Shown piece after piece: positions 2,801 to 45,840 of a stretch of DNA of 64,000 nucleotides (position 1 is its first letter; every line of letters begins with the position of its first letter). The translations under genes and the position numbers were made by a program. The notes beneath the pieces were generated by a model. It ran no database searches, was not told the origin of the DNA, and saw only the letters and a list, made by a program, of their open reading frames with translations. The stretch is from the sequence record NC_050154.1; one strand, written 5' to 3'. This stretch comes from Escherichia phage D6.

Positions 2801-4164
2801 TAATCATCCTCCGGCGGTTCTATCGCGATATCATCATCTCCGGCGTCATACCCTGCATCAGATGCATCATAATCACCGTAAATATCAGCCGTTGCCGAAG
2901 GGTCAATATCCAGCTCTTCGTCGTTGGCCTCGAATTCTCCAGCTTTACGCTCGCCATTGCGGTCGTAATCTCCGCACCCCAATTCTTCAACAATGGTTGC
3001 CACATCCGCCCGGCGCTCTGCCAGCCATTGCGGATGGTTAGCCTGAAGCGTCGCAAACTCCCTCGCCTCTTTGTCCAGCTGTTCATCATCAACATCATTG
3101 ACGTCAGAAACAGGTGGTTCGAGAAGAGTGATAGCTTTCGCCGCGCGCGCCGCGAGGATAGCCGGGACGCTGACCCCCTGGCGCTCGATGTATTCAGCAA
3201 CACCGATATCATCCAGTTCCTCGCGCTCACGCATACGTATAGCGGCGGCGATAACTCTGGCAGCGCGTGCGTCAGCGCCAATGCGATATTCAATCTCTTT
3301 GCCACGCTGTTCGGCCTGTAGGCGTGCTAATTCGAGTTTTTCTCTGGCCTCAGCCTCTTTGAATGCTTGCTGGCGAGCGCTCTGACGAAGCTTTTCATCC
3401 CCCTGTCGCAGCTTTTGTTCGGACTGATATATAGCTGCCAACCTACTGATAAAATCATTCATGTAGTAGGCCGCGTCACTGATTAGACCGAGAAGGCGCT
3501 GCCCAGGGTGCATTCCTTCTGGCTCTTTATCGCCCAAGGCGTCTATTTCCGCCTGTAGACGTTCGGCCTCCTGATCAACAATGCTTTGATACTGAAGTGC
3601 GCGCTCTTGCGCCATTTGAATTGCTAACCGCAGGTGTTCTTCTGCGCCGTTCTTCATCATATCGCGAGCCACATTCGTAGTGGGCAATGTGGCACGCTGC
3701 ACAGCACCGCCAGGGATCATTGCTGAAGATCCCTCAATTTTTGGGGCGCTTTTATCTTCTTCGGGGATCATTTTCGCCATTTTTTCGCGCAATGATCTCC
3801 TGACAGATTCTTTTATCTCATTGTTATTATTGGTATTACTTTCATGATCCGAAGTTTTCTTTCTTGGCATACTTCGGAAAGAACCTGCACCCTGCGAATT
3901 GTCAATTTCTGTAAATTTTGTTTTTTCTGCACCCTCTTCCAGCTTTTTTGTTGCTCTTCCCGCCCGTTTTTTTTCAGGTGATTTGGTGCTTTTTTTTGTT
4001 GTCTTTACCTGCGACCGCACCTCATTTTTTTTCATATTGAGATGCTTTCTGGCTGTATTGAAGCTAAGGCCATGCTCCTCACAGTATTCCTTTACAGTGA
4101 TCCCTTTTTCTTCACGCAACGCTATAAAGCGGGCGCGGTGCTCCTCCCAATTAACCAGACTCAT
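2800..4164 (-). CDS. pacA: Terminase small / pac-recognition subunit (PacA-like)
   Basis: 454 aa; N-terminal HTH-like segment (KEYCEEHGLSFNTARKHL); acidic C-terminus; translationally coupled to pacB. Confidence 0.55.
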   Translation of the reverse strand: MSLVNWEEHRARFIALREEKGITVKEYCEEHGLSFNTARKHLNMKKNEVRSQVKTTKKSTKSPEKKRAGRATKKLEEGAEKTKFTEIDNSQGAGSFRSMPRKKTSDHESNTNNNNEIKESVRRSLREKMAKMIPEEDKSAPKIEGSSAMIPGGAVQRATLPTTNVARDMMKNGAEEHLRLAIQMAQERALQYQSIVDQEAERLQAEIDALGDKEPEGMHPGQRLLGLISDAAYYMNDFISRLAAIYQSEQKLRQGDEKLRQSARQQAFKEAEAREKLELARLQAEQRGKEIEYRIGADARAARVIAAAIRMREREELDDIGVAEYIERQGVSVPAILAARAAKAITLLEPPVSDVNDVDDEQLDKEAREFATLQANHPQWLAERRADVATIVEELGCGDYDRNGERKAGEFEANDEELDIDPSATADIYGDYDASDAGYDAGDDDIAIEPPEDD

Positions 4165-4553
4165 AAAGCAACACCACGCTTTTTAACGGCGGCATTCCAC
4201 AGCTTATTCGCCATGTCCACCAGCTCTCGTTGCTCTTTTCGCGCCTGTTCGACTGATTTCCTGCTACAGTTTTTAACCAGTAAGCTACCGTATTCAGGCG
4301 TGCGCCCGCGCACCTTGAACTGATATCCGTTCAGACCATGTAGCCAGTATTTTCGTGGATACACACGATCATCCAGCTCACAGATTGCCCTGCTTGAACG
4401 AACAAAATGACGAATGATGTTAGTTACACTTACTCGTGAAACATGGAGATGAGGGTATTTTTCTTTGGCGAGAGTGGTAATTTCAGTGACTGTCAGATAG
4501 CAGTCAGCCCTGATCATGATATCCGCAATTTCTGCGCTGCTGATTTGTTCCAT
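4161..4553 (-). CDS. Hypothetical protein in the late-promoter-activator position (Lpa-like?)
   Basis: 130 aa; overlaps pacA start (ATGA); operator-like motif 77 bp upstream, as for C1-controlled lpa in P1. Confidence 0.3.
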   Translation of the reverse strand: MEQISSAEIADIMIRADCYLTVTEITTLAKEKYPHLHVSRVSVTNIIRHFVRSSRAICELDDRVYPRKYWLHGLNGYQFKVRGRTPEYGSLLVKNCSRKSVEQARKEQRELVDMANKLWNAAVKKRGVAL

Positions 4554-12282: not shown

Positions 12283-15200
12283 TTAGGCCGCATCGGCGAT
12301 TATTTTACGCAGTTCATCTACCGAGTAACGCGTAGATACCATCCATGCAGGACGGTCAAAGTTCACATCAGCAACCGGGTTTGCTTCAAAATTCCAGAAA
12401 CGCCCGCCAATCTTCTTAATCGCGTCTTTGGCGTTCCGTATTGTCGAGGAACCTGGTTGGTCGGCAATGAGATAAACCGCGCCAACGTCCTCGCTGACGC
12501 TCCACCAGCGCCCGCGAACACGCGCCTTAGCGCGAATCGGCTTATCATTAACCACAATGATATAGTCATCATTCGCCGCTTCATCAGCTCTGGCTTCAGC
12601 CACTGCCGCCTGCTCTTCTCTTTTGCTTTCAGCCTGCTCAAGCCTTTCCGCGATCTCTGATTCAGTGGCCCCGCCGTTTTTCAGCGATACATAGTCCTGC
12701 CACGTTGACGATTTGAGCGTATCCGGCAACTCATTCACATAGTCGCCGTCTTTCAACTCACGGGCGCGGCGGGTAGCCATTTCGACCAGGCGATTAACAG
12801 AAACAGCATCAGCAAAATCGTCCTTACTAATGTGTTTTTCATCAAATGCATTGATGACAGCCCCCACCTTAATCCACTGTGCTGCCGGTGATTCCAGGGG
12901 GTTATCAGCCTGAACAATGGCGAGTTTCGCTCCATCTACCCCATTATTCGCCAGCTGTTCCAATGCCGTCCATCCATCTGCATCACTGAGTGATTTATAT
13001 TGCTCAAACAATGCATCGCGCCAGGCCACCAGCGCAGAACGTGTTTTTTCGATCTTCGCCTTAATTTTCGCGATCTTGACCTGATTAAACATCCGTTCAA
13101 TATCATCGATATTGCTAAAGGCTTTCATCCTGCCCTGGAATAAACGGTATGCCAGCACGGTCCTCCAGAATGATTCCAGACCTTCTCCGGACGGTTTGCG
13201 GAACAAGCTAAGAATATCTTCAGAAGTGACTTTATTAAGCGAACGACCTGACAGACCACGCCCAGCCATCCAGTTTTCGAACTCCTGGGTAACATCATCC
13301 ATCGTTGCCTGTGCGCCCCATGCCTGCATTCCCTGGGTGTAATCATACCCATACAATGCCTGGAGGAATCCCTCGCCGTCCACGATATTCAGCGGGTTAT
13401 CACTGGCTTGTATTTTTGCCACTTCACGCTTCAGCGCCTCGTCGTTGCCATCAGGATATATCCATCGCTCAGGTGCTATATCCGATGCTCGCCCGATTTT
13501 TTGGCCTATCACGCCATCATAGGCCGATGACAGCGCGATCTGACCATCATCTGTGCGATATGCCCAGTATTTAATAGCTGACCCACCGCCCCATGCATTA
13601 CCAGGTTTACCAGCAATAACATTCATTACCCCATTGCGAATAGCATCATAGAACTGATCGCGAGTAAGTATTGTTGATAGCTGGTGGCACTGAACACCAC
13701 GCGCAGCCGTTGCGCGCGATTCAGCTACCCCCTCTTCAAAAGTTACCGCTTCAATCACAGAGTCAAACGGCAATGTAACGATTGCCCCCGGTGCTCGAGC
13801 GTAACGACTTGCTCTATCCAGCCAGGCGATACGGCAGAGGTATTGTGCTTTTTCACCGTCAATTTTTTCCACCCGGACAATCGCTGTTGTTTCGCGATCA
13901 TCAATGACTGCACGGTAATAACTACCTTTATGCAACAGGATATTCTTGTCAGTGCGCATATATTCCTGTGGGTTCTGAATAACATCGATACTGATATCCA
14001 GCACACCAGACTTAATAGCGCGCTCCACATCACCACGAGAGCGTTTCATTATGGTATCCGCGTCTTTTGCCCTGGTGATCGCAAACCGCAGCACCCGCGC
14101 ACGTTTTCTGTAGCTACTCAACTGCTCAAGCGCGTATTTTTGCCCATTCCTGTTCGTACCCGCTTTTATCAGGTCGTCAAGATTTCGCTGGTAATACTCT
14201 ATCTGTTCCATCGCGCTTTTCAGTTCTGTCTCCATCATGCCGATATCTTTTCCGGCGGCGTTTGCCGCTTTCAGGTAGATATCGAGAGCATTGTTGGCCT
14301 CGCGCTGTGCTTTCAGTTTCAGACGTTCTTCACGCTCTTGCGCCTGGCGAGCCATGATTGCGCGGCGTTCTTCCGGGTTTGCCGCCAGCATAATGGCGCG
14401 TTCATCAGCATCATCCGCATCACCATTGGCGATCTCTGACATGTCGGAGGTCATCACCATCTTGATCCAGTCTTTCTTACGTTTAAGCGTATCCAGACGG
14501 AAGTCATCGAATGTGCCTTTGCCACAATAGTAGTGAACATTGACCTTTTCTTGCGGTGAACCTACGCGCGCACCGCGCCCATTTCGTTGGTCGATACTGG
14601 CTGGTGTCCAGGGTAGTGTCAGGTGGTGGATATCGGTTGTCCCGATGTGCAGGTTAATACCTACTTCAGCCTTCTTGTTACAGATTATGATGCGCGTGCG
14701 ACCTTCGTTATAGTCGGCGGCAATACCTTCCATGCCCTCAAGGCCAGCATCATTTTTAGCGGAGAGATAATCCTCATATTGGGCAAGTTTGCTGTAGTAG
14801 GTTTCCCATGCCCCTTCTTTGTATTCACCGTTTTTGTTTGGAGTAGGTTCGGTCGGCTTATTCACCTTCTTCAGTTTGATGCCACCAGCCTGGCTAACTG
14901 TCGTCGCATTGATAATGCCAATCTCCTGCTCCGGCATTTGCAGTGCACTGGCGATAATACGGCGCAGCTTCTGGTGCTGGGCTTTTTCATCAATAAAGAC
15001 GATCTGCTTACCGTTCTTCAGACCTTCACGAAGATTTTCGATCAGCGCGGCATACTTCGGCGGGATGGGGTGCGATACCTGCTGCATATCAATGCCGGCA
15101 GCCGCAATGGCCTTCAGTATTTCAGCTTCCAGTTCAATGCTGGCACGTATTTCAACATGCGTCGGATGTTCACTAAAAGCGGTCTTCACTACCTTGCTGG

Positions 15201-18200
15201 TACGCGTACTGACCAGCCCGCCAGCGCCGTCTTCCTCGGCCTCATCAACATCATCTGCCACTTTACCGCCAGCTACTTTTGGCAAGGCATCAGCAATAGC
15301 TTTTACCTGGTCTGCAAGCTCAACGGGGAACTGGAATGTAATCGCACTGGCATACAGATCCGGGTCTATAGCAACCTTATCCATGTCACGGATGATGGAG
15401 AAGATGAAATCATCCGGTTTGTCGTTAGTGATATGCCCGTTTTCATCGACTGTCAGCTCATCATTGCGACTTAACTCCTGAGCACGCTTACGAAGCTCTT
15501 CATAAGCAGTCTCCTGCTCCCCTGTCATCGGGATCTGCAAGGTGTTCTCGATGATGTCGGGAATTTTAACCGTCGCTCCGACATCTGCAGCAGTCTTCAG
15601 AGTGGCCCAACGATGGAAAATACCACGCAGGCCGTCAAGGTTCTGGAAGCCCACCAGCCCCTGCTTCTCTTCCACTTCCCCGGAAATTTTCTGGACCTGA
15701 ACTGTGGCTGTTTTGCCAAACACACGAACGAAATCATCAGGCGTAATGATGCCCATACGCATCCACTCTTCCTGCGGAATGACAGTAGACAGCATGTTGA
15801 AGGCATCAATCGGACTGTTCACCAGCGGTGTTGCCGTCAGCATGACTACACCACGCCCGTTGTTGCGTTTCATCATGTACGCAGCTTTTACAGCCATGTC
15901 GCGGGCCATCTTGGATACTGCCGGGTTAGGCAAATATGCCAGTTGTCCCGCTTCACGCCCGGCATTAAAGGAGTTGCGGTAGTTATGCCCCTCGTCGGCA
16001 ATCACGCTATCGAAGTTCATATCCTCAAAGTACGGGATATTTTGCTTCTTCGTTGTACCGGTATTCGCGGCCTGATCCTTAATCTTGTTCTTCTTCTGCG
16101 CATCACGGTGTTTACCGGACGCCAGGTCAAGACGCCCCATTTCCACAGCATTAAAGACAGCTTGCTGTGAGTTCTCCTCGATGGTTTTTTCTCGTAGCGG
16201 GATAGACGCGAATTGTTCTTTTGTCATGATGACCGTTCGCCAATTTGACGACGGGATCATGTTCATACGCTGAACGATAACGGCGCTGGAGGACTCTTTC
16301 ACAACATTTCTGGTAAGAGGCTGCCCGTTACTGTCGAGGCGTGGTTCGCCATTTTCATCAAGCACCGGCGCGGTCAGAATATTTCCGCTGTCATCACGAA
16401 CTTCATCCAAACCGATAAACATCATATTGGCGAAGGCATCAGCACTGTAGAAACTCTGTGCCTCGTGATACCAGTTCTGATAAACCGCCTTCGGAACAAC
16501 AATACACGTGCGTTTAGTGCGACCTGTTTCGAAGTTATACGCCTCAAGCGCAAGCGCGGTCGTGGTTTTACCCAGCCCGGTACCAAATCCCATGATGCCA
16601 CGCCCATCTTCTGACAAGCGCCGAACTTCTTCATTCTGATAAGTCAGAGGAATGCGCTTTCCACTAATCCCTTCCAGGCCAAGCGGTGCGTCAGAATGTG
16701 TGAACGGAATGAAACCATTGAATGCGTCGTTATAGTCACGGGCTATCTGATCCGCCTGCGGGTGGGTGCGTAACCAGTCGTTAAAGCTAACTTCCAGTTG
16801 AGCAATTTTATCCAGGTACTCGTTAGCGTTCTGCCCACGCGGTTTAACACCGTTCAGGTAGTTTTCTAACTGGTTCAGGAAGCCGTCTTTATTGTTGGCC
16901 TTCTTGAACTCATTCCCGTTTTTGCCGTTTACGGTTCGTAGCTGATAGCCGGTAAATACCCCGTCCTTACCTTCGTAATCGTCCGGAGATACCAGAATGC
17001 CATCGACGACCTTCAGATCAGGTTCAGTGTACTTAAACTCGTCATAGCCCTGCTCTGCCAAGAACTCTTTTATCAAGCGGCGATCCAGCCAGCGGGCATT
17101 CAGATTAACGGTGACTTTATTTAGTGGCGTGAAAATGCGTTTCTCTTCGATTTTCGCCAACTGACGCTCAAAGTTCGCTTTCTGCTCACCTGTTGACGCA
17201 TCACGCCAGCCCACCAGCAGTGCTGTTTTGGTTGCAACATCGCCGCTGGTGGCGCGGTCCATCGGCAGCAGACAGCCATACCCATCAATAGCGATATCAT
17301 CAAATTTCGCCAGGTATTCAAGGACCGCGTCGTCGTCCTCTGGCAGTTCACCAGCAAACGCCTCACGAAAGTCGCCCAGCGTTATAGGATTAAGGGCTAC
17401 ATCACTAAAAAGATGTGCTATCACTTGTTCAGGACGTGTAAAGTCAATACCGGCAGCACCATCCGTTACATCAAGTCGCCCTGCCAGAAGGTCAGAAGTG
17501 GAACCATCCTGTTTCACATTGCCAGTGAACGTCATCCAGTTTTTAGCGCCAGCTTCAGCAAGCCCATTCAGCTTAATGGCGTGCGGTGGTCCATACTTCG
17601 CAACTTCTGCTGCCGCCAGGCGGGATGCATCTGCCAGTTTGTCATCAACGTTCACACCCAGGTTACGCAAATCAAGTGCCTTGTTGATCAACTGACCTAT
17701 CAGCGCACCGCGCATAACGCGCTCCCTGTCTTTTTCTCGCTGCTTGCCAGCAAAGCGAATCATTGCTGCCACTTCATCACTGACAACCGATGGATAGTCG
17801 GACGCGATCGCCGATATCTGGTCCCATGACAAAGCCAGAATCCCGTTTGTTGACTGGAACGCGATCTGCAGATCGCCAAACGTCGAAACACCATATCGAC
17901 TTACATCAAGCGCGGAGGATTTGGTTGTCGTGTCCTTAACCCATTTCAGACCATCAAACTCATGCCAGATACCGCCTACAAGGCGTTTATCGCCCACTTT
18001 CGCGCCCTGCCATGCCTGAGTAGTTACGCCGAGCAAATCCCAATTGATGCGACTATCAAAGCGACGAGATAGCGCGGTTTTCATCGACTCATTGGATACA
18101 CGACCGTCTTTTTTCACCACCAGGGTATTGCGGAAGCTGGTACGTTCCATGTCGCCGTAAACAAATCGCTTCCCTTCGGTTGTAAACCATTTTCCTTTGA

Positions 18201-19119
18201 GGAAGGTATCCCAAAGGACGTTTGCCGATTTGAGTGTTGAATCATCCGTGTCGGGGATCATCTCCAGGAAGGTTTCCGGGTGTTTACGCAATACCCATAC
18301 GTCCACCACGGTATCTGTACCGGATTCGCTGAACGTACCAGAAGGCATACGATGTGCGCCCAAAAATTCCGCTTTACGGCTGACTTTATCGCGCAATTTT
18401 TTATATTTCGCACCATCGGTCATGCCATTCGGCACCACCAATACGATAAGCCCACCAGGCTTAACCTTGTCGATCGTGCGCAGCACAAAGTAATTGCCAA
18501 CGTTCTTCTCGTTTGCATATGCCGGATCAAGACCGGCGACACCGGAACGCCCTTCACCAAACGGTACGTTACCAACAGCGTGATCATACATTGCGTCTTT
18601 CGCCGCCAGCGCCTCAAACGCCCCGATATTCACATCGTCTTCCGGGTGCAAAAGCTGGTTTATTCGACCGGAAATCGGAGACAGTTCGGCGCTGGTCATT
18701 ATCATGCCCTGCCGTTTTGTCTCCTGGAAAATACCTGTGCCCGCTGATGGTTCCAGTACGTGCCCGCCATCAATACCGTAGTCAGCAAACAGATCCCATA
18801 TACCTTCAGCCATAAACTGTGGCGTGTAGTATTCGTATTGGCTGCCCTCACCATCTGTCAGGCCGCCTTCACCGGTATACCCGGCAAGAATCTGACGTTG
18901 TTCGTCAGTTAATTTCGCCCCATCGAAGCCGGGCGGAAGGGAATTAAGAAGATTTACTGCGGCATTATTTGCTGCCCGGCGTGTTTTCTGAATACTGACG
19001 CCATCGGCTTTCCTGACGCCAAAGGTCGCAACAGCACGTAATTTATGCAACCGACTAACAATTTCAATCAGTTCGCCTAAGCTGGAGGCTTCACTGATTG
19101 AATGAAGTAGTTTGTCCAA
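12283..19119 (-). CDS. darB: DarB-like antirestriction protein (N-terminal adenine-methyltransferase domain plus superfamily-2 helicase)
   Basis: 2278 aa; MTase-like NVPFG and SAM-binding region; helicase motifs GFGTGLGKTT and DEGH; TTG start with strong RBS (GAGGGGG); size matches P1 DarB (~2255 aa). Confidence 0.8.
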   Translation of the reverse strand: MDKLLHSISEASSLGELIEIVSRLHKLRAVATFGVRKADGVSIQKTRRAANNAAVNLLNSLPPGFDGAKLTDEQRQILAGYTGEGGLTDGEGSQYEYYTPQFMAEGIWDLFADYGIDGGHVLEPSAGTGIFQETKRQGMIMTSAELSPISGRINQLLHPEDDVNIGAFEALAAKDAMYDHAVGNVPFGEGRSGVAGLDPAYANEKNVGNYFVLRTIDKVKPGGLIVLVVPNGMTDGAKYKKLRDKVSRKAEFLGAHRMPSGTFSESGTDTVVDVWVLRKHPETFLEMIPDTDDSTLKSANVLWDTFLKGKWFTTEGKRFVYGDMERTSFRNTLVVKKDGRVSNESMKTALSRRFDSRINWDLLGVTTQAWQGAKVGDKRLVGGIWHEFDGLKWVKDTTTKSSALDVSRYGVSTFGDLQIAFQSTNGILALSWDQISAIASDYPSVVSDEVAAMIRFAGKQREKDRERVMRGALIGQLINKALDLRNLGVNVDDKLADASRLAAAEVAKYGPPHAIKLNGLAEAGAKNWMTFTGNVKQDGSTSDLLAGRLDVTDGAAGIDFTRPEQVIAHLFSDVALNPITLGDFREAFAGELPEDDDAVLEYLAKFDDIAIDGYGCLLPMDRATSGDVATKTALLVGWRDASTGEQKANFERQLAKIEEKRIFTPLNKVTVNLNARWLDRRLIKEFLAEQGYDEFKYTEPDLKVVDGILVSPDDYEGKDGVFTGYQLRTVNGKNGNEFKKANNKDGFLNQLENYLNGVKPRGQNANEYLDKIAQLEVSFNDWLRTHPQADQIARDYNDAFNGFIPFTHSDAPLGLEGISGKRIPLTYQNEEVRRLSEDGRGIMGFGTGLGKTTTALALEAYNFETGRTKRTCIVVPKAVYQNWYHEAQSFYSADAFANMMFIGLDEVRDDSGNILTAPVLDENGEPRLDSNGQPLTRNVVKESSSAVIVQRMNMIPSSNWRTVIMTKEQFASIPLREKTIEENSQQAVFNAVEMGRLDLASGKHRDAQKKNKIKDQAANTGTTKKQNIPYFEDMNFDSVIADEGHNYRNSFNAGREAGQLAYLPNPAVSKMARDMAVKAAYMMKRNNGRGVVMLTATPLVNSPIDAFNMLSTVIPQEEWMRMGIITPDDFVRVFGKTATVQVQKISGEVEEKQGLVGFQNLDGLRGIFHRWATLKTAADVGATVKIPDIIENTLQIPMTGEQETAYEELRKRAQELSRNDELTVDENGHITNDKPDDFIFSIIRDMDKVAIDPDLYASAITFQFPVELADQVKAIADALPKVAGGKVADDVDEAEEDGAGGLVSTRTSKVVKTAFSEHPTHVEIRASIELEAEILKAIAAAGIDMQQVSHPIPPKYAALIENLREGLKNGKQIVFIDEKAQHQKLRRIIASALQMPEQEIGIINATTVSQAGGIKLKKVNKPTEPTPNKNGEYKEGAWETYYSKLAQYEDYLSAKNDAGLEGMEGIAADYNEGRTRIIICNKKAEVGINLHIGTTDIHHLTLPWTPASIDQRNGRGARVGSPQEKVNVHYYCGKGTFDDFRLDTLKRKKDWIKMVMTSDMSEIANGDADDADERAIMLAANPEERRAIMARQAQEREERLKLKAQREANNALDIYLKAANAAGKDIGMMETELKSAMEQIEYYQRNLDDLIKAGTNRNGQKYALEQLSSYRKRARVLRFAITRAKDADTIMKRSRGDVERAIKSGVLDISIDVIQNPQEYMRTDKNILLHKGSYYRAVIDDRETTAIVRVEKIDGEKAQYLCRIAWLDRASRYARAPGAIVTLPFDSVIEAVTFEEGVAESRATAARGVQCHQLSTILTRDQFYDAIRNGVMNVIAGKPGNAWGGGSAIKYWAYRTDDGQIALSSAYDGVIGQKIGRASDIAPERWIYPDGNDEALKREVAKIQASDNPLNIVDGEGFLQALYGYDYTQGMQAWGAQATMDDVTQEFENWMAGRGLSGRSLNKVTSEDILSLFRKPSGEGLESFWRTVLAYRLFQGRMKAFSNIDDIERMFNQVKIAKIKAKIEKTRSALVAWRDALFEQYKSLSDADGWTALEQLANNGVDGAKLAIVQADNPLESPAAQWIKVGAVINAFDEKHISKDDFADAVSVNRLVEMATRRARELKDGDYVNELPDTLKSSTWQDYVSLKNGGATESEIAERLEQAESKREEQAAVAEARADEAANDDYIIVVNDKPIRAKARVRGRWWSVSEDVGAVYLIADQPGSSTIRNAKDAIKKIGGRFWNFEANPVADVNFDRPAWMVSTRYSVDELRKIIADAA

Positions 19120-19270
19120 AGGATTTCCCCCTCTAAACCGTAAAAAATTCCGCTATGCGGTACGGTTGAGAGGGTATGGAGAATGTTATTTTCAGGGGGA
19201 CGATACTACCGTCAAAATCACATACTCCCCATAGTTTGCCTACTTATTAACCCATGACCGGGAGAAAAAT

Positions 19271-19756
19271 ATGGCAAACATTGAACCTCGCTGGCTAATT
19301 GAAGCCCGTAAGCACATTGGCCTGACTGAAATAAAAGGCGCTAAACACAACCCTGAAATCGTTCAGTTCTGGCGCGACATCAAGCGCGGCGGAATTAAAG
19401 ACGATGAAACGCCGTGGTGCGCAGCATTTGTCGGTGCAATGCTGGAACGTGTAGGCATCCGCTCAACAAGATTTGAGTCGGCAAAATCCTATCTGGATTG
19501 GGGCGAGAAATTAGATACACCGGCATACGGATGTATCGTTGTATTTACCCGCGTAGGCGGTGGGCACGTAGGCTTCGTTGTCGGACGCCGCGCCAATGGC
19601 GATCTGCTTGTCCTGGGTGGGAACCAGGGGGATGCGGTTAATATTCGCGCATTCCCAACATCAAGAGTGTCTGGCTATCGCTGGCCTGCTGGCGAACCAC
19701 GCAATACCGCTCTGTTACCAGTCGGAGACGCAGCAACCTCAACTAATGAGGCATGA
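19271..19756 (+). CDS. NlpC/P60-CHAP-type peptidoglycan hydrolase-like protein (TIGR02594-like)
   Basis: 161 aa; catalytic-type Cys (ETPWCAAFV) and His (GGGHVGFVVG) spaced as in CHAP/NlpC-P60 enzymes. Confidence 0.5.
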   Translation: MANIEPRWLIEARKHIGLTEIKGAKHNPEIVQFWRDIKRGGIKDDETPWCAAFVGAMLERVGIRSTRFESAKSYLDWGEKLDTPAYGCIVVFTRVGGGHVGFVVGRRANGDLLVLGGNQGDAVNIRAFPTSRVSGYRWPAGEPRNTALLPVGDAATSTNEA

Positions 19757-19780
19757 AAAAAGCCCCGGCCAGGCCGGGGC
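19755..19780. terminator. Hairpin terminator (T-run on minus strand) ending the icd/ant-like operon
   Basis: gccccggc-cag-gccggggc preceded by AAAAAA on plus strand. Confidence 0.55.
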
Positions 19781-19788
19781 ATCACGCT

Positions 19789-19989
19789 TCAAGTCACGAT
19801 CCAATCATTACCGACTATATCAGCCGTCGATAAATCAACTTCCCGGATCTGGAGTCCATTAATACAAAACCATCCGGTAGTAGAGTAATTATCAGGCCAG
19901 GCCCATACACCAACACTCCATGCTTTACGGCGGCACACTTCAGCCTGTCCTTCCCTGATTTTTTTTACCGCCTGCATGATGTCCATCAC
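19789..19989 (-). CDS. Hypothetical small protein
   Basis: 66-aa ORF, start overlaps stop of the upstream gene. Confidence 0.3.
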   Translation of the reverse strand: MMDIMQAVKKIREGQAEVCRRKAWSVGVWAWPDNYSTTGWFCINGLQIREVDLSTADIVGNDWIVT

Positions 19990-20917: not shown

Positions 20918-20974
20918 AGTTACGGCCTCGTAAGTTGATAAACAACCTGCGACCCGCTGTCAAACAGGTGGCAG

Positions 20975-21284: not shown

Positions 21285-21330
21285 CGAGCGAGCATTTTCC
21301 GATCATTGGGATGTTTTGTAGACACACAGG

Positions 21331-22293
21331 TCATCCCCTAAATCCCGCAGGGATTGACCAATCCTCACGGTCAAATTCAGACCGATAGCCACGCTGTTTC
21401 ATCAGGTCAAAGGCTTCACCAATGGTTGCACACCCCTGGGAGCCAGAATAATCCATTGAGAAATCCAGGGCACTGGATTGTTTAGGCTTATTCACTGCGG
21501 TAGCGGCACTACGTATCCATGCAAATTTTTTTGCCAGCTTTTCAGCGGTACGATACAGAGCCTGCCGTTTTGCGTGCCCCTCGTCTGAACGACGCTTTGC
21601 AGCTCTCGCTTTTGCCGCCGCCAGGCAGTGGTTGGTATGTTCTTCCCTGATTACTGGTTTTTTATCCAGTACCACGTTATCCGTTTGAGAACTATCTGCT
21701 GGTGAAGCCTTTGGCTGAACCGCGCATGATCTTTCTCTTCTTTTGGCTATAGAGTGACTCTTATTTTCTATTGGCTGTTCATTTTGAACATGGGGGGACT
21801 TGTTCAATTTGAACAGGGGGTTCCCAGTTTCAAAAAAATAACGAACCTTTGAAATCAACTGCTTAACCAGTTTTGTGGCGTTGGCAAATTTGATGCCCTG
21901 CTTACCCCCTATCTCCATTGCTACATGAATGAAGTGGAGAAATTGTGTCGTAAACCGATATACGTTACACACCTGGGCATTGTTATTCGCTACCTGATGT
22001 TGCTTAACAAGCATTCCGCACTTCGTCGCTTCAGTAAATGCCCGGCGCACAGTAGAAATACTGCGCCCTGTAATCTCAGACATATCAGCATATGAGCGAC
22101 GGATCATGTATTCATCGGTAGCCCCTGCAAGGTTGGCGAACTCGGCAATAATGGCGCTATGTGAAGGGGAAAGAAGACCGCTATGACGAGCAAAAAAACT
22201 CAACTGATGACCTTTGATTTTTTTGTGGTATTCAGTGTTGTTTTTATACTCAGAAGTGTTGAAAGTTACTGAAACTGAATTTAAAATATTCAC
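21331..22293 (-). CDS. HTH-containing hypothetical protein (possible replication or regulatory protein)
   Basis: 320 aa; HTH-like MSEITGRSISTVRRAFTEATKCGML; basic C-terminal half. Confidence 0.3.
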   Translation of the reverse strand: MNILNSVSVTFNTSEYKNNTEYHKKIKGHQLSFFARHSGLLSPSHSAIIAEFANLAGATDEYMIRRSYADMSEITGRSISTVRRAFTEATKCGMLVKQHQVANNNAQVCNVYRFTTQFLHFIHVAMEIGGKQGIKFANATKLVKQLISKVRYFFETGNPLFKLNKSPHVQNEQPIENKSHSIAKRRERSCAVQPKASPADSSQTDNVVLDKKPVIREEHTNHCLAAAKARAAKRRSDEGHAKRQALYRTAEKLAKKFAWIRSAATAVNKPKQSSALDFSMDYSGSQGCATIGEAFDLMKQRGYRSEFDREDWSIPAGFRG

Positions 22294-30142: not shown

Positions 30143-30731
30143 GTGTCTTAGCTACTTCCTGAGACAAGGCAGCTTTAACATTACCCGTATCTTGCATTAC
30201 TTTGTCTGACTTGCTCTGGAGTTTAGACAGTTTGTCGTTAGCATTAGCGATATCTTCACGGAGTGCATCACGTGATTCTTTCGCTTCAGCTAATTTCTGA
30301 GCGTTAGATTTAACTCCCTGCCGCTTCTTATTTCCGTCATCAATATTTTTTGCTGCACGAGCAAGTTTTCGAGCTAATGACTTCTGGAAAGAAGTTGCTC
30401 CACGATTAAATAAAGCCGCAAGAGATTGCCCCAAAGCCGACATTGTTTTTACTGGCTTGAACGGTACTGTTTTACCATTCAGTTTGATCCCAGATATATC
30501 ACCGGTATCGTTAACCTGAACTTCCATTGTCTGTTCATCAATACCAATAAGGGTAAACGTGCGCGTCATGATCCCATCTTTCTTCCTGCCATTACTTGCA
30601 GGGATCACCCTCGCTATCTTGTAACCACCTTTGCTGATTTCTTTGACGAGTTTTGACAGCCCCTTTTCGTTTAACTCATCATAATTAAGAAGAACATAAT
30701 TATTTTTATTTGACATCCCAGTCTCCTTCAC
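30096..30731 (-). CDS. Hypothetical protein (Hdf-like position), coiled-coil C-terminus
   Basis: 211-aa ORF between antiholin-like and darA-like genes. Confidence 0.3.
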   Translation of the reverse strand: MKETGMSNKNNYVLLNYDELNEKGLSKLVKEISKGGYKIARVIPASNGRKKDGIMTRTFTLIGIDEQTMEVQVNDTGDISGIKLNGKTVPFKPVKTMSALGQSLAALFNRGATSFQKSLARKLARAAKNIDDGNKKRQGVKSNAQKLAEAKESRDALREDIANANDKLSKLQSKSDKVMQDTGNVKAALSQEVAKTRALKEEIARLEDEHD

Positions 30732-31152
30732 GCTTTTCGATCGTAAACTGGCGCTCTATGCAGTCATTGATAGGGAAAATGCGATAAAGCGGATTCAGTC
30801 GGCAGTTACCGTTAGTCAATGTGACTTTCAGATCCCACTTCGTTGGCTCAAGATATTTCGTATCGATGAGCAAATACTCTTCTCTCTCACCGCGTTTTGA
30901 GGCGTCAACTGGTCGCGTTTTCCCTGAAATAACCACAGATGGATTTTTCAGGTCTTGCAACCAATATTCGATTTGAGCATTGCTCACCCAGCTTCGCTTA
31001 ACACGTAGCGAAACAGGAAATGCTATAGCGGATTCTTTCACTACAGCGTCACCAATACTCAAAATCTCAACACTCTTGCGACGAAAAATGAAACGGTCAA
31101 TGATGGCAACAAATGCCATGATAAAAATGAAATAATTTCCAAAGTTACCCAT
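30706..31152 (-). CDS. Antiholin-like protein (LydB-like), one N-terminal TM segment
   Basis: 148 aa; N-terminal hydrophobic helix; directly follows the holin-like gene. Confidence 0.35.
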   Translation of the reverse strand: MGNFGNYFIFIMAFVAIIDRFIFRRKSVEILSIGDAVVKESAIAFPVSLRVKRSWVSNAQIEYWLQDLKNPSVVISGKTRPVDASKRGEREEYLLIDTKYLEPTKWDLKVTLTNGNCRLNPLYRIFPINDCIERQFTIEKREGDWDVK

Positions 31153-31478
31153 TATTTCTCTCCACCTTTTCCCCCATTCGCTATTACGCTTAAGAGATTC
31201 AAGACGTTACTAGCTCTGGACTTCAAGCCCTGTAAAATTTCACTACCGTTGTTACTGGCAATCAGAACAACGCAGAAAATGATACCTTCAGGCCATTCTT
31301 GGCTAACCGCCACCCCATACCCCGCAAGCCCGGCTGTTACCGCAGTAAACAATTCACTCGCAAGATTGAGCAGGGACGCAGAAATGCGCCCGTCTCTAAC
31401 TCCGAGAAGGAATACGCCGGTTCCACTTAGTAGGGATGTTATGACTACTACAGCCAGATTTTCATAATCTGCAAACAT
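31152..31478 (-). CDS. Holin-like protein (LydA-like), three predicted TM segments
   Basis: 108 aa with three hydrophobic helices and a charged C-terminus. Confidence 0.45.
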   Translation of the reverse strand: MFADYENLAVVVITSLLSGTGVFLLGVRDGRISASLLNLASELFTAVTAGLAGYGVAVSQEWPEGIIFCVVLIASNNGSEILQGLKSRASNVLNLLSVIANGGKGGEK

Positions 31479-31556
31479 ACCCCTCCAGAAATAACATCTA
31501 ATGCGCCACTAACTTAGTCAGTTTGTTATTTCCTTACAGGACATCTTCTAGAATCT

Positions 31557-40833: not shown

Positions 40834-43800
40834 TTAATCCTCAAGCAGAGCATCCAGCGACGGGTCATTAATAGTTGTGCTAGCACGTGGTCGCGGTTGC
40901 GGCTGCGATGTTTTGACAACCTTATCCGGATCGCCTTTTGTATTGTTCTTGTTCACATTCAGAAGATCGTTCAGGATAGAGCAGATGTTATCCAGCGCCT
41001 TCAACATAGCAGGATCGTTATTTATAGTGTCAGTAGTTAATGGTTGTCTTATTCCGCTTCGTGCGAGATCTGTTACAGTAGGAAGCTGTGGTGGCATAGC
41101 AAGAAAAGGTTCTTGCACGGCTGACGCAGAGCCAAATATGGCATTATTGGCTTCGTTTGATATACCTCTAATGCTATCTGCGGTTTGTTGAATACCATTA
41201 TTCAGCCAACTACCGGCGCTCCTGGTAAGCGGGCTAATAGCCCTAGCAATTGTTGAGTTCTGCCCAGTAGCCTGATAAACCAAATCATTAACAATGCCAG
41301 TGCCATCTACCCCACCAATAAGTCGTGAAACGTTATCGCCAATTGCAGGTAACACAGCAGAGCTAATACGTTTCAGACCTGTTAATGACGAGTCAAACAA
41401 AGAGCCAAGCACCCCCTTATCTTCACCATCAATTACCTTGTATCCATTGTCATAAACTGGAATCCCCCTTGAGTTTACAGGGATTTTTTCACTCTCACTT
41501 GCCGAAGAAACACCGGAAAGAAGATCCACTGAAGGCATATCGCGTTCAGCTTTTGGTCTTTTTTGTAAAGCGTCTCTTATATCAGTTACCTGGCTTGCTT
41601 TTTGAAATCCAAAAGATTTACCGGTTAAGCTGGATATCTTTTCAGTAAGAGCCTGATCCATTCCTTTCGCTTTTTCGGAAAGCGAAGATATAGAACCAAA
41701 CGAAGTCGCCGACGCAAAATCCTTAATCAGGCCAAGGCTTGTACCAGCAAGGCTGGTAGCCGCACCTCCAAATAAATTACCTACCCCGCTGTCATTTATA
41801 GCGATTAATCTCTCAAGCAGACTTGATGGAGAGCCAGTATTAACATCAACGTTCTCTGGATTAATCGGTTGCGATTGATTGCCTGTTTTTTGTGGCTTTT
41901 TGACTGCCTGGGCATATTGTGCAACCTCAATTGGCTGTTGTGTTGCTGTCGGAACGGCATTCAAAACTGGTTGAGCTGGAGATTTTCCATTAACATATTT
42001 TATCTTGCGACCAACACTATATTGCGAATCGCGGGCAATTAGCTGACCACCATTTTCTTTCTGAATTTTATTAATCCGCGCCAATGTTTCGTCAGAGAAT
42101 TGTCCCTCCCATCGACCAGTATTTGTGTTAAATGCCCCAAGAGCATTCTTTATGAACTCATTGTTAACCGCCGGGTTTCCACCTTCTTTCGTCGCTATTG
42201 CACGAACTAATTGCGTCATAACCTCTGGGTTGCTGACGTCTATTTTTTCATTAGGCGAGACGCCAAGATATTTGCTGACGTTATCAATATATTGATTAGT
42301 ATTGTTCTCCTTTGGGGGTGCCCATTTGGAAATAATACTGGATACCGTCTGTAGCTTCTGATACCCAGCAGCGGCGCTGGTGCCGTTGTAATAGCTTGAC
42401 ACCTGGTTTGCCAGCGCCCTGATCCCTTCTTCAGGCGTGTTAAATCGCGCAAAACGTTGTTCACCTTTTGCATTTGGTGCTTCCAGCGTCGCCCCTTCCT
42501 GATTAGCGAAAACAAGGTTGCCGAGATTATTATTCCGGTAATTGCGGTTTTTGGCGTTGCTGCCACCAATATTCAGATCCGCTGCAATGGTGTTGCTGGT
42601 AGGGGCATTAAATTCAGCCGGGGAAGTATACCCGTGCTCACCAACACCATCTTCACCATCACGCCCGCCTTGTAGCTGCTCACCTAAAGAATGAATCGCA
42701 TCGACAGTTTTTTTGGTGCCGTCTTCAACAGCTTTTTTTACTTGTTTTGTGTTTTCGTCAGTGGATAAAAATGTATCCTTAAGGCTACCAAAAACAGATT
42801 TTGTGATATCTACCGCGCCGTTAACACCACGAGCAATATCTCCGGTATCAAAATTCTGAAGTTTTTCACCTGCTCTTTCAAATCCTAGCGCAGAAATTCC
42901 TTTCCCTATCAAGTTTGTTGCGCCCGACACCAAGCCCCCCATATCGAGCACATTAGCTGTTGCGTAAGCCGTTTTTTGCTGTTCGGATACAGCATCATCG
43001 TCACTTAAACCAAAGGCTGCCTTTTGCGCCTCTGTATCTGTGTAACCATCTATGGCGTCATATCCAGCCATTGCCAGCGAACCGATGATAGGGACCGCTC
43101 TTGCCGCAGTGGATGCTGCTGATTTAACTCCTATTTTTGCAGCACTTTTGAGGGCTACAGATTCAGTTTTTTTCTTTGCAATGGCTTCGCCGGTTTTAAT
43201 GGTGGCATCTTCAGCCACAACACCAGCTGACTTCACGGCCTTAGCAGTATTTTTTGTTTCCTTTGCAATCCCCTTTGATGTATCGCTGATAGTGCTTACA
43301 TCTTTGGGTTTGCTGATCTCATTTTTAACTACTTTTGCTGCTCCGACACCAGTGCCAGCTGCAGCGCTACCGGCAGCAACTTTTTCGCCAACGGAGAGTG
43401 CTTTTTTCCCAAGATTGCGGCCTTTCCTTTTCGATTTATTCCGTTTATTTTTTCCCGTTTGATCACCAATATTGATTTTATTTCTTCTGCTTGCTCGATT
43501 TTTCCAGAGATCACTTAAGCCGAACTTATTTCCAGAAGACACTGATTTCCGAAGCTTAACTATCTCGTCAGAAACATTTTCCAGACCATCAATTATTTTG
43601 TTGTCATTGGTCTGAAGGATTTTGGTTTGCTCTTCTACTGCTTGTGCGGATTTTGTCTCAACAGCGTTATTGAACGCTTTTGCAGATGTTGCTTTTTGAG
43701 AATTCACCGCCGCCGGATAAGTAATTACTGGTGATATCGCTTTCGAGGTTGATGTTTCTTTTTTCCCCTTTTCTACCCATTCTTTAAGAGATTCTGCTTT

Positions 43801-44630: not shown

Positions 44631-45452
44631 TTAATAATGGTTAGCCATCCATTCAGATCTAATTGATGGGATAAACTCTCTATTGAGAAAGGGGACGTAC
44701 AGTGTGGTTGTCACATCTGCACCCTCCTTAGCGTTTTTGCAATGTTGCGGAGGCAGGATCAGTCGGCTTGTGCCTCTCTCAATAGACATTTTCAGGCCGT
44801 GGCGTAGGTCTTTTTGCATAAGCTGTATGCGAGCCACAAGCGGAGTAAATTCGGTTTCAAGCGCCATGCTTTCAATGATGTCAAAGCGTCGGTTAGCGGC
44901 CTGCGTGAAGTCCTCCGGATCGTCTTCAAGCGCCGTGCATAAAGCGAGTTCAGCAATTCGCATCCGTGCCACGCCAGCACTGTATTCGGGGCTTTTCATA
45001 TCAGGAAGTGACGCTCGCATTCGTTCAAGGAGTTCCGCGCCTTTCCCGGTTAATGGTTTAAGTATCCAGTCAGTTGGTATTCCATTTACTGGTACGTTGG
45101 TTTTCACGTAAGGAGGTACAGTGAGTATTTCTACTGTTTGGGCCAGGTCGCTCAGGTTAATATCTGCATGATGCGTATTACCGCAGTGACTGCACTCATA
45201 GGAGTAGGTCATTACTGCATCGGGGCGCGAATTAACAAATATCCACCAAAGAGCAGTTCTGCGATCCTGAACTGTCCAGTTAGCACTGTCGTTAATTTCA
45301 CCATCCTGCATAGAGTTAAGGTACTCTGTAGTAGTTGCCTCATCTTCTGCCGGGTTCAGGTCAGAATATTTCAGCGCATCCTTCACGGTAGGGGCGTGGA
45401 ACTGAATTTCTGTCTCAGGACGGGAAGGCAATGGGAATTTTGGAATGTTCAA
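44631..45452 (-). CDS. Tail-assembly-associated protein with Zn-ribbon (PmgB-like position)
   Basis: 273 aa; CSHCG motif; first gene of the tail operon. Confidence 0.3.
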   Translation of the reverse strand: MNIPKFPLPSRPETEIQFHAPTVKDALKYSDLNPAEDEATTTEYLNSMQDGEINDSANWTVQDRRTALWWIFVNSRPDAVMTYSYECSHCGNTHHADINLSDLAQTVEILTVPPYVKTNVPVNGIPTDWILKPLTGKGAELLERMRASLPDMKSPEYSAGVARMRIAELALCTALEDDPEDFTQAANRRFDIIESMALETEFTPLVARIQLMQKDLRHGLKMSIERGTSRLILPPQHCKNAKEGADVTTTLYVPFLNREFIPSIRSEWMANHY

Positions 45453-45816: not shown

Positions 45817-45840
45817 CCATTTGAAGGATCACACAGGGTT

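What the first reader, a model, noticed from the sequence alone, without database searches (positions are those of the whole stretch)
19271..19756. Stand-alone CHAP/NlpC-P60-like peptidase gene divergent from darB
A 161-aa protein with a catalytic-type Cys-His pair sits alone on the plus strand between two minus-strand operons. It is not in a recognisable lysis cassette; holin/antiholin are at ~31 kb and spanins at ~55 kb, and no lysozyme-type endolysin is evident in this window. It could be the endolysin, a virion-associated wall hydrolase, or cargo.
Basis: partly seen in the sequence, partly recalled or inferred. Interest (0 to 1): 0.35.

Follow-up and report, generated by a model that had tools for sequence, protein, structure and literature searches.

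The report
Endolysin of a D6-like phage-plasmid
This small gene most likely encodes the enzyme that a P1-related E. coli plasmid-phage uses to cut the bacterial cell wall when it bursts the cell; it stands in for the unrelated lysozyme that phage P1 uses, and it had already been flagged in the literature, so the finding is real but ordinary.

Summary
The ORF is real: 19271..19756 (+), 161 aa. It clears TIGR02594 (143 bits, cutoff 70.6) and CHAP (31.4, cutoff 26). The confident model has an NlpC/P60 papain-like fold. His99 is invariant and Cys50 is present in at least 90% of diverse homologues.

The window is a D6-like, P1-related phage-plasmid.

Best reading: this is the phage's soluble, holin-dependent endolysin, a non-orthologous replacement of P1 Lyz. 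The evidence:
- The complete reference plasmid has LydA, LydB and a spanin pair but no Lyz/LydD/LydE; P1 has no TIGR02594 gene.
- Homologues 69-72% identical fill the endolysin slot of holin-endolysin-spanin cassettes in three unrelated phages. The protein is 51% identical to the catalytic part of the tested endolysin Lysqdvp001.
- The gene keeps its place (darB | X | repL-pro-prt) in relatives down to 78% identity.
- It is preceded by a conserved box (AATCACAnnC-N4-yAnnnT) also found upstream of prt, lydA, the tail-fibre and sit operons and darB (7 sites against 0.68 expected). This is probably this lineage's late promoter.
- The tail protein Sit already carries a lysin domain, which weakens the virion-lysin rival.

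Silva et al. 2019 already called this gene a predicted peptidoglycan hydrolase. Activity, bond specificity and timing remain untested.

The parts
19271..19756 (+). CDS of the 161-aa TIGR02594/CHAP (NlpC/P60-fold) cysteine peptidase; proposed endolysin. Catalytic C50 and H99, and the GGNQ motif at 116-119.
19216..19235 (+). Late-promoter-like element for the gene: box AATCACATAC, 4-nt spacer, -10-like CATAGT; 36 nt upstream of the ATG.
   Evidence: Pattern scan: 7 hits against 0.68 expected, all intergenic and 18-52 nt upstream of same-strand starts. PWM score 24.9 bits, leave-one-out 19.8. The box is invariant in 4 lineages although the spacer is only 56% identical. No sigma-70-like site was found on the + strand.
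19260..19264 (+). Shine-Dalgarno sequence GGGAG, 6 nt before the ATG.
   Evidence: Read directly from the sequence. AGGAG is at the same place in relatives.
19171..19190 (-). Divergent late-promoter-like element pointing at darB (AATAACATTC-TCCA-TACCCT), 52 nt upstream of the darB start.
   Evidence: 22.6 bits.
19762..19780 (.). GC-rich hairpin GCCCCGGCCTGGCCGGGGC between the convergent genes. It has a T-run only for the minus-strand (immI) transcript and forms a hairpin without a U-tract for the X transcript.
31152..31478 (-). LydA-type holin; the inferred partner that releases the soluble enzyme.
   Evidence: 43% identical to P1 LydA; phrog_1527 holin, E = 8e-39.
30706..31152 (-). LydB antiholin.
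   Evidence: 34% identical to P1 LydB; PF16084 LydB, E = 1e-24.
31511..31530 (-). Late-promoter-like element of the lydA-lydB-dar operon (AATAACAAAC-TGAC-TAAGTT); positional counterpart of P1 LPdar.
55254..55727 (-). i-spanin (N-terminal TM helix, coiled-coil-type sequence).
   Evidence: phrog_214 Rz-like spanin, E = 8e-16.
55088..55420 (-). o-spanin lipoprotein (lipobox LSGC), overlapping the i-spanin gene; homologue of P1 Mlp.
4161..4553 (-). Lpa (late promoter activator) homologue, 31% identical to P1 Lpa; the inferred activator of the box-type promoters.
40834..44616 (-). Sit-like tail injection protein (1260 aa) with an internal endolysin-like domain (about aa 688-817). This is context: it already fills the virion-lysin role.
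   Evidence: phrog_7182, 2426 bits; PDB 7q47 'Endolysin', E = 5e-18.

Best explanation
The gene encodes the endolysin of a D6-like (P1-related) phage-plasmid.

Proposed mechanism:
1. Late in the lytic cycle the Lpa homologue activates a box-type late promoter 36 nt upstream of the gene.
2. The 17.6-kDa enzyme has no signal, SAR or TM segment, so it accumulates folded in the cytoplasm.
3. The LydA holin, timed by the LydB antiholin and expressed from its own late promoter at ~31.5 kb, permeabilises the inner membrane.
4. The enzyme reaches the murein and cleaves it with a papain-like Cys50/His99 dyad. The polar third residue probably comes from the GGNQ motif.
5. The spanin pair at ~55 kb then disrupts the outer membrane.

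Evolutionarily, this is a non-orthologous replacement of P1's SAR lysozyme module (lyz-lydD-lydE) by a cassette-type TIGR02594 peptidase.

Shown here: the domain, fold and residue conservation; the absence of any other endolysin; synteny; and the promoter-like box and its distribution.

Inferred: the timing of expression, the dependence on LydA, the lytic role itself, and the bond cleaved (amidase or endopeptidase; unknown).
For: 1. Enzyme identity. TIGR02594 at 143 bits against a cutoff of 70.6, and CHAP above its gathering score. The AF2 model has pLDDT 93.7 and pTM 0.89. Its best PDB matches are peptidoglycan NlpC/P60 endopeptidases: 4xcm, MepS, LytE, RipA and Tse1. H99 is invariant, C50 is kept in at least 90% of members, and GGNQ is nearly invariant.

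2. Sole candidate.
- tblastn finds no P1 Lyz, LydD or LydE in the window or the whole 90.9-kb reference plasmid, while LydA, LydB, Pro, Prt and Ulx are found.
- The plasmid's PGAP annotation names no other lysozyme, amidase or peptidase.
- The unannotated 6.9-9.1 kb gap holds tRNA genes, not an endolysin.
- P1 (nt 8000-94800) has no TIGR02594 homologue; best E = 1.0.
- In PLSDB, 114 plasmids carry X at 90% identity or more and about 500 carry Lyz at 90% or more. The sampled lists share no accession.

3. Family function.
- Homologues at 69-72% identity sit between holin and Rz/spanin genes in Aeromonas phage PCAh2 and Klebsiella phage BUCT711.
- In the E. coli lambdoid phage 705R4 the homologue follows Q and a holin.
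- Pseudomonas phage ZC01 has the same arrangement (PMC5418858).
- X is 51% identical over residues 8-161 to the catalytic region of Lysqdvp001, whose recombinant catalytic domain kills V. parahaemolyticus (PMC9180635).

4. Core gene, not cargo. The order darB(-) | X(+) | repL-pro-prt(-) is kept in Klebsiella, Raoultella and metagenome relatives at 78-84% identity.

5. Late expression.
- The box AATCACAnnC-N4-yAnnnT occurs 7 times against 0.68 expected, always intergenic and 18-52 nt upstream of a same-strand start.
- The genes downstream are darB, X, prt, a ddrB-like gene, lydA, the R/S/U tail-fibre operon, and pmgB-sit.
- Four of these sit where P1 has annotated late promoters LPpro, LPdar, LPs and LPsit.
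- The box upstream of X and of prt is invariant across four lineages.
- Two further sites, not used to build the motif, lie outside the window upstream of minus-strand genes.
- The architecture (9-10 nt box, 4-nt spacer, -10) equals that of P1 late promoters. The box sequence differs, matching an Lpa that is only 31% identical.

6. No TM or signal segment, so a holin is needed.

7. The virion-lysin role is already taken by Sit.
Against: - No experiment supports any step. Activity, timing and the lysis phenotype are all inferred.
- The gene is not linked to the holin or spanins in this genome. P1's lysis genes are equally dispersed, however.
- The promoter motif was derived post hoc from three of the sites. 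Only the other sites, the out-of-window sites and the cross-lineage conservation are independent of that. No transcript data were available.
- The same domain is fused to large tail or baseplate proteins in other phages (phrog_1259; BFVD) and to T6SS effectors (PMC13055248). The domain alone therefore does not specify an endolysin role.
- The Plychap001 construct in PMC9180635 starts at Lysqdvp001 residue 119. By my alignment that is about at the catalytic Cys, so that paper's activity data say little about mechanism.
- P1 nt 1-7999 were not scanned for a TIGR02594 homologue.
- The D6 genome paper could not be read.
Confidence: 0.85

Rival explanations
1. X is a virion-associated (entry) peptidoglycan hydrolase. 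It would be made late and built into the tail or baseplate, or packaged in the head with the Dar proteins whose gene darB it faces. It would then digest the wall locally during DNA injection rather than cause lysis from within.
For: The best PHROG is phrog_1259, 'baseplate hub subunit and tail lysozyme', matched at profile positions 987-1146 of 1179. BFVD shows the fold fused to tail proteins of 600-1400 aa. Late-type promoters are arranged back-to-back with darB. Late expression fits this role as well as the endolysin role.
Against: The protein is a stand-alone 161-aa protein with no tail-attachment domain, and it lies outside every tail or baseplate operon. Sit, the P1-type injection protein, is present at full length and carries its own endolysin-like domain. 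If X were only an entry enzyme, a phage with a holin, an antiholin and spanins would have no endolysin at all. Its closest non-lineage homologues are cassette endolysins. The 'tail lysozyme' label on small homologues is a name carried over from one PHROG.
Confidence: 0.07
2. X is accessory cargo unrelated to phage lysis. It could be a moron expressed in the lysogen that remodels the host wall, or a Tae-like antibacterial toxin domain.
For: It stands alone on its own strand next to a variable region. Relatives carry a HigBA insertion or the immI module at this spot. TIGR02594 domains occur at the C-terminus of T6SS effectors (PMC13055248), and Tse1 is a weak structural match.
Against: Its position is conserved in every relative examined, down to 78% identity, and 114 PLSDB plasmids carry it. 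There is no signal peptide, secretion-linked domain, or adjacent co-directional immunity gene. In relatives its stop codon is 2 nt from the end of repL. No sigma-70-like promoter was found on its strand; instead it has the box shared with structural genes.
Confidence: 0.04
3. X is a catalytically active wall peptidase that only assists lysis, for example by cutting peptide cross-links. The main endolysin would be something unrecognised among the many hypothetical proteins.
For: About half of the plasmid's genes are 'hypothetical'. I did not scan every ORF against Pfam.
Against: PGAP's HMM-based naming found no other muralytic family. In three other phages the homologue is the only enzyme in the holin-endolysin-spanin cassette.
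Confidence: 0.04

Closest known systems
Lysqdvp001, endolysin of Vibrio phage qdvp001 (and its catalytic fragment Plychap001)
   Same: 51% identical over window residues 8-161 against Lysqdvp001 residues 82-236. The match includes the PWC and GGHVGFV catalytic motifs and the C-terminal S-x-NEA tail. It has been tested experimentally as a lytic enzyme (PMC9180635).
   Different: Lysqdvp001 has an extra N-terminal PG_binding_1 domain (236 aa). The window protein is the bare catalytic domain. Host and phage type are unrelated.
TIGR02594 endolysins in canonical lysis cassettes (Aeromonas phage vB_AhyM_UALMA_PCAh2, Klebsiella phage BUCT711, E. coli phage vB_EcoM-705R4, Pseudomonas phage ZC01)
   Same: The first three are 69-72% identical, about 160 aa, and stand-alone. 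ZC01 is about 46% identical and is annotated as a putative endolysin.
   Different: Those genes lie directly between holin and spanin genes. Here the gene is alone, 11.4 kb from the holin and 35 kb from the spanins, under its own promoter.
P1 Lyz (gp17), the SAR endolysin of phage P1, with LydD/LydE
   Same: It has the same inferred role in a related phage: a monocistronic-style late unit (LPlyz in P1) in the darB-prt-pro neighbourhood. The lysis genes are dispersed in both phages.
   Different: There is no sequence or fold relationship. P1 Lyz is a T4-type lysozyme, and its SAR domain is known from the published P1 work (my own knowledge). X is a cysteine peptidase with no TM or SAR segment. 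LydD and LydE are absent here. X should therefore depend strictly on the holin.
NlpC/P60 peptidoglycan endopeptidases with solved structures (T. thermophilus 4xcm, E. coli MepS, B. subtilis LytE, M. tuberculosis RipA; T6SS effector Tse1)
   Same: Papain-like fold. Cys50 lies at the start of helix 50-60 and His99 in strand 97-106. Foldseek probability is 1.0.
   Different: The relationship is at fold level only: TM about 0.45-0.54 and 15-22% identity. No TIGR02594 member has a solved structure. Bond specificity cannot be transferred.

Membership tests
TIGR02594 family (NCBIfam) | Full-length match to the TIGR02594 HMM above the curated cutoff (70.55 bits). | tested here: met
   143.3 bits, E = 5e-42, residues 8-138 against profile positions 2-132 of 132.
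CHAP domain (Pfam PF05257) | Score above the gathering threshold (26 bits). | tested here: met
   31.4 bits, residues 44-118.
CHAP domain (Pfam PF05257) | Conserved catalytic Cys and His. | tested here: met
   C50 is kept in at least 90% and H99 in 100% of 38 diverse homologues.
NlpC/P60 papain-like peptidoglycan peptidase fold | Alpha+beta papain-like fold with the nucleophile Cys at a helix N-terminus and His on a beta-strand. | tested here: met
   AF2 pLDDT 93.7. C50 starts helix H50-60 and H99 lies in strand E97-106. Foldseek probability 1.0 to 4xcm, MepS, LytE and RipA, TM about 0.5. Distances between catalytic residues were not measured.
Phage endolysin (functional class) | Non-structural muralytic enzyme, and the only one in a genome that has a holin and spanins. 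| tested here: met
   No Lyz, LydD, LydE or other annotated lysin in the full plasmid. Holin, antiholin and spanins are present.
Phage endolysin (functional class) | Late expression together with the holin. | tested here: inconclusive
   A conserved late-type promoter box is shared with the lydA, prt, tail-fibre and sit operons. This is in silico only; there are no transcript data.
Phage endolysin (functional class) | Genetic linkage to the holin/spanin genes in a lysis cassette. | tested here: not met
   The gene is 11.4 kb from lydA and 35 kb from the spanins. The feature is met for homologues in other phages. P1's lysis genes are also dispersed, so linkage is typical rather than defining.
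Phage endolysin (functional class) | Loss of the gene blocks lysis; the purified protein degrades murein. | not testable with these tools
   Needs a deletion mutant and a zymogram or sacculus assay.
SAR endolysin (P1 Lyz type) | N-terminal weakly hydrophobic signal-arrest-release segment. | tested here: not met
   The N-terminal 30 residues have mean hydropathy -0.54. The maximum 19-residue window is 1.42 and lies in the beta-core. There is no homology to P1 Lyz.
Virion-associated peptidoglycan hydrolase | Fused to, or encoded within, tail/baseplate genes, and present in virions. | tested here: not met
   It is stand-alone and sits between darB and immI/repL, outside the tail operons. Sit carries the virion lysin domain. 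Presence in virions cannot be tested here.
T6SS Tae-type amidase/endopeptidase effector | Adjacent cognate immunity gene and association with VgrG/PAAR/T6SS loci. | tested here: not met
   There is no co-directional neighbour. In relatives the gene ends 2 nt from the convergent repL. The 66-aa neighbour in the window belongs to the immI operon and is absent in relatives.

The most novel reading that the evidence does not exclude
The disordered C-terminal tail ending in S-x-x-E-A-COOH is a regulatory element of this endolysin family. It could be a substrate-mimicking plug for the active-site groove, or a recognition tag that keeps the cytoplasmic enzyme inert until it is released. About half of the diverse TIGR02594 proteins whose domain is C-terminal carry this tail, including the tested Lysqdvp001. 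If so, it would be a control mechanism not yet described for soluble Gram-negative endolysins.

A second, smaller novelty: the D6 lineage has re-specified its Lpa/late-promoter pair to a different box (AATCACAnAC instead of P1's AAGTGACTT) while keeping the same promoter architecture and positions.
Probability: 0.12. Interest if true: 0.5.

Novelty: already known. Interest (0 to 1): 0.15.

Why it matters
The result completes the lysis system of the D6-like phage-plasmids, a widespread group in E. coli and Salmonella (114 PLSDB plasmids). The system is a soluble cysteine-peptidase endolysin, the LydA/LydB holin-antiholin pair and a spanin pair, each at a separate locus.

It also gives a clean example of an endolysin module swap between related phages: a SAR lysozyme with LydD/LydE in P1, and a holin-dependent peptidase here.

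This makes one testable prediction. lydA should be strictly essential for lysis in D6-like phages, whereas P1's SAR endolysin can act without its holin.

The late-promoter box is a practical by-product for annotating late operons in this lineage.

None of this changes current understanding. The enzyme family, its use as an endolysin, and the presence of this gene next to ImmI were already on record.

Tried and rejected
1. P1 late-promoter consensus (AAGTNNYT-N5-TANNNT) in the window: 2 hits against 0.93 expected, neither near the gene. I rejected it and found the lineage's own box instead.
2. The bare 9-mer ATCACANAC with 1 mismatch: 52 hits against 53 expected. It is uninformative; only the composite of box, spacer and -10 is specific.
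3. Sequence search of the protein against the PDB: only a chance GAPDH hit at E = 0.2. No solved structure exists for this family.
4. The D6 genome paper (PMC5800970) and the D6 record under the accession I recalled (MF356679) are not held. I could not check how the D6 authors annotate the gene or whether they describe late promoters.
5. Pfam on the Sit-like protein found nothing at E <= 0.01. That briefly raised the virion-lysin rival. PHROGs and a PDB sequence search then showed an endolysin-like domain in Sit.
6. The unannotated gap at 6.9-9.1 kb was checked for a hidden endolysin. It holds tRNA genes and no convincing ORF.
7. C88 was considered as an alternative nucleophile and rejected, because the position is variable.
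8. The 66-aa convergent neighbour was considered as an immunity protein and rejected. It is part of the immI insertion and absent in relatives.
9. A literature search for 'D6-like' plus 'endolysin' returned only a general review.
Catalytic-residue distances and docking of the C-terminal tail could not be measured.

Full report
**1. The observation**

The ORF is as described: 19271..19756, plus strand, ATG start, 161 aa. A GGGAG ribosome-binding site lies 6 nt upstream.

- To its left is a 2278-aa DarB homologue on the minus strand (12283..19119).
- To its right, convergent with it, is a minus-strand operon: a 66-aa ORF, a Rha/Ant-type regulator and icd.
- A GC-rich hairpin (19762-19780) separates the convergent genes.

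**2. What the element is**

- Window 18500-21500 is 100% identical to E. coli plasmid NZ_CP122910.1 (90.9 kb). It is 99% identical to Salmonella plasmid CP011430.
- CP011430 is pYU39_89, which Silva et al. 2019 describe as a "D6-like plasmid prophage" (PMC6799933).
- Relative to phage P1, the proteins are 31-56% identical: Prt 50%, Pro 43%, LydA 43%, LydB 34%, Ulx 46%, Lpa 31%.
- About 370 nt at 20.8-21.2 kb match the P1 immI region at 86-92% identity.
- Rfam finds C4 antisense RNA at 20964-21049 (-) and its a1/b1 targets at 21118-21170 (-).

**3. What the protein is**

- It scores 143.3 bits on TIGR02594 (cutoff 70.55) and 31.4 bits on Pfam CHAP (cutoff 26).
- With a 38-sequence alignment, AlphaFold2 gives a confident model: pLDDT 93.7 and pTM 0.89.
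- The best PDB matches are NlpC/P60 peptidoglycan endopeptidases: T. thermophilus 4xcm, MepS, LytE, RipA, and more weakly Tse1.
- Those matches are at fold level only, with TM about 0.5 and 22% identity or less. No solved structure of the family exists.
- In the alignment His99 is invariant and Cys50 is present in at least 90% of members; one member has Ser. A GGNQ motif (116-119) is nearly invariant, and Cys88 is variable.
- Cys50 opens helix 50-60 and His99 lies in strand 97-106. This is the papain-like arrangement.
- The protein has no signal peptide, SAR or TM segment. It is 17.6 kDa with pI 9.0.
- The family is very large: 8,424 clusters at 50% identity. The domain occurs stand-alone and fused.

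**4. Why it is most likely the endolysin**

*(a) It is the only candidate.*
- The complete reference plasmid has no homologue of P1 Lyz, LydD or LydE.
- Its PGAP annotation names no other muralytic enzyme.
- The phage keeps a LydA holin (phrog_1527, E = 8e-39), a LydB antiholin (PF16084, E = 1e-24) and an overlapping i-/o-spanin pair homologous to P1 ppfA/mlp.
- P1 (nt 8000-94800) has no TIGR02594 homologue.
- In PLSDB, 114 plasmids carry X at 90% identity or more and about 500 carry P1-type Lyz at 90% or more. The sampled lists share no accession.

*(b) Its nearest relatives outside the lineage are cassette endolysins.*
- Homologues at 69-72% identity lie between holin and Rz/spanin genes in an Aeromonas phage and a Klebsiella Uetakevirus.
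- In an E. coli lambdoid phage the homologue follows Q and a holin.
- Pseudomonas phage ZC01 has the same layout (PMC5418858).
- X is 51% identical to the catalytic region of the tested endolysin Lysqdvp001 (PMC9180635).

*(c) It is a core gene.* Klebsiella variicola, Raoultella ornithinolytica and a metagenome contig (X 78-84% identical) keep the order ulx-darB(-) | X(+) | repL-pro-prt(-). In the window the immI module is an insertion between X and repL (21331..22293).

*(d) It carries a late-type promoter.*
- A composite element, AATCACAnnC-N4-yAnnnT, lies 36 nt upstream of the ATG (19216-19235).
- A relaxed form of the pattern occurs 7 times in the window against 0.68 expected.
- All seven are intergenic and 18-52 nt upstream of a same-strand start. 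The downstream genes are darB, X, prt, a ddrB-like gene, lydA, the R-S-U tail-fibre operon and pmgB-sit.
- Four of these positions correspond to annotated P1 late promoters: LPpro, LPdar, LPs and LPsit.
- As a weight matrix the seven score 21.6 bits or more; the next-best hit scores 15.6.
- Two further sites, not used to build the motif, lie outside the window upstream of minus-strand genes. One is 41 nt upstream of a gene block that I assume, without testing, to be tail/baseplate genes. The other is 137 nt upstream of the mat-like gene.
- The box upstream of X, and that upstream of prt, are invariant across four lineages, although the surrounding spacers are only 56-65% identical.
- The architecture equals that of P1 late promoters (9-nt box, 4-nt spacer, -10). 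The box sequence differs: P1 has AAGTGACTT. This fits the 31% identity of the Lpa homologues.
- No sigma-70-like promoter was found on the gene's strand.
- Caveat: I derived the pattern from three of the sites, so the raw enrichment figure is biased. The independent support is the remaining sites, their placement, and the conservation across lineages.

*(e) The virion-lysin role is already filled.* The 1260-aa Sit homologue (40834..44616, -) is a full-length member of the "tail injection transglycosylase" family (phrog_7182). Its residues ~688-817 match a solved endolysin, 7q47, at E = 5e-18.

**5. Mechanism**

The proposed sequence is:
1. Late transcription, dependent on Lpa.
2. Accumulation of the folded enzyme in the cytoplasm.
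3. Release through LydA holes, timed by LydB.
4. Cleavage of murein by the Cys50/His99 dyad.
5. Disruption of the outer membrane by the spanins.

Steps 1 and 3-5 are inferred. The bond cleaved is unknown. The fold neighbours are mostly gamma-D-Glu-mDAP or cross-link endopeptidases, whereas CHAP domains can also be amidases.

The enzyme lacks a SAR domain, and P1's lyz-lydD-lydE module is missing as a whole. The swap therefore looks module-level, and it predicts strict dependence on the holin.

**6. Rivals**

- A virion-associated role (0.07) is suggested by the PHROG name and by tail-fused homologues. It would leave the phage without an endolysin, and it duplicates Sit.
- Cargo or toxin (0.04) is contradicted by the conserved synteny, the missing signal peptide and immunity gene, and the promoter type.
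- An auxiliary role beside an unrecognised main endolysin (0.04) cannot be fully excluded, because I did not profile every hypothetical ORF.

**7. Novelty**

- RefSeq already labels the gene "TIGR02594 family protein".
- Silva et al. [quoted passage not shown]
- The family is already used and tested as an endolysin.
- This analysis adds the argument for sole-endolysin status, the reciprocal replacement of P1 Lyz, the conserved synteny and the lineage-specific late-promoter box.
- Whether the D6 genome paper already reports these could not be checked.
- The finding is therefore correct but ordinary.

Noticed in passing
window 19676-19753 (protein residues ~136-161); alignment A3: TIGR02594 proteins have a conserved, low-confidence (pLDDT 43-72) C-terminal tail: RWP...LP(V/L)...S-x-x-E-A-COOH. 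Of 79 diverse 50%-identity cluster representatives whose domain is C-terminal, 39 end exactly in EA. Lysqdvp001 ends in SNNEA. The tail lies outside the TIGR02594 model and its function is unknown.
   Followed up: partly
window 19171-19190(-), 19216-19235(+), 25221-25240(-), 27727-27746(-), 31511-31530(-), 38115-38134(-), 45491-45510(-); L001+L002 plasmid coordinates 67511-67530(-) and 72022-72041(-): A lineage-specific late-promoter-like element, AAATCACAnAC-N4-yAnnnT. It has the same architecture and genomic positions as P1's Lpa-dependent late promoters but a different box; P1 has AAGTGACTT. The darB-X spacer holds two of them back to back.
   Followed up: yes
window 19789-21330 versus L004/L006/L007 10487-10489: The immI module (C4 RNA, a1/b1 targets, icd, Rha-type antirepressor, 66-aa ORF) is inserted between X and repL in the window. 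It is absent at that site in the Klebsiella, Raoultella and metagenome relatives. The reference plasmid also has a second icd copy at 74885..75100 of NZ_CP122910.1.
   Followed up: partly
window 19789..19989 (-): A 66-aa ORF at the end of the immI operon belongs to phrog_7385 (unknown function) and has no Pfam hit. By eye its sequence (RRKAWSVGVWAWP...) resembles the start of DUF2829-type proteins. This was not tested.
   Followed up: no
window 6084-7850 (-): A cluster of four tRNA genes (Met-CAT, Ser-TGA, Thr-TGT, Asn-GTT) sits in a 2.2-kb stretch with no annotated genes. P1 also carries Asn and Thr tRNAs plus an Ile2 (CAT) tRNA, so the 'Met-CAT' gene here may likewise be an Ile2-type tRNA.
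   Followed up: partly
window 45808..46596 (+) and 44631..45452 (-): A plus-strand ORF, at the position of the gene annotated as a RepB-family replication initiator in the reference plasmid, sits between the tub and pmgB homologues. It splits what is one LPsit-driven operon in P1 (pmgC-tub-pmgB-sit). A strong late-promoter box (45491-45510) lies directly upstream of pmgB, as if to restore expression of pmgB-sit.
   Followed up: partly
window 40834..44616 (-) versus NZ_CP122910.1 40572..44788: Sit is intact in the window (1260 aa). In the otherwise near-identical reference plasmid it is interrupted by an IS91-family element, so that plasmid is probably defective as a phage. The window therefore comes from a different, probably intact, member of the group.
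   Followed up: partly
window 59925..61586 (+): A 553-aa ORF at the position of the gene annotated glnS (glutamine--tRNA ligase) in the reference plasmid. This is an unusual cargo gene for a phage-plasmid.
   Followed up: no
window 56898-56917 (-): A weak match (11.8 bits) to the late-promoter matrix lies 25 nt upstream of the PAAR gene (56589..56873). That gene heads the upfC-upfB-spanin gene string, so this may be the promoter that times spanin expression.
   Followed up: no
L004 9143-9859; L007 14700-16439: Relatives carry different insertions at the same junctions. The K. variicola plasmid has a HigB/HigA-type toxin-antitoxin pair between darB and X. The metagenome contig has a group II intron-type reverse transcriptase (RVT_1, GIIM, HNH) upstream of prt.
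   Followed up: no
PLSDB hits H142-H152 (Acinetobacter baumannii plasmids of 55-112 kb): TIGR02594 genes at 37-47% identity recur on large non-mobilizable Acinetobacter plasmids. These may be phage-plasmids that use the same endolysin family.
   Followed up: no
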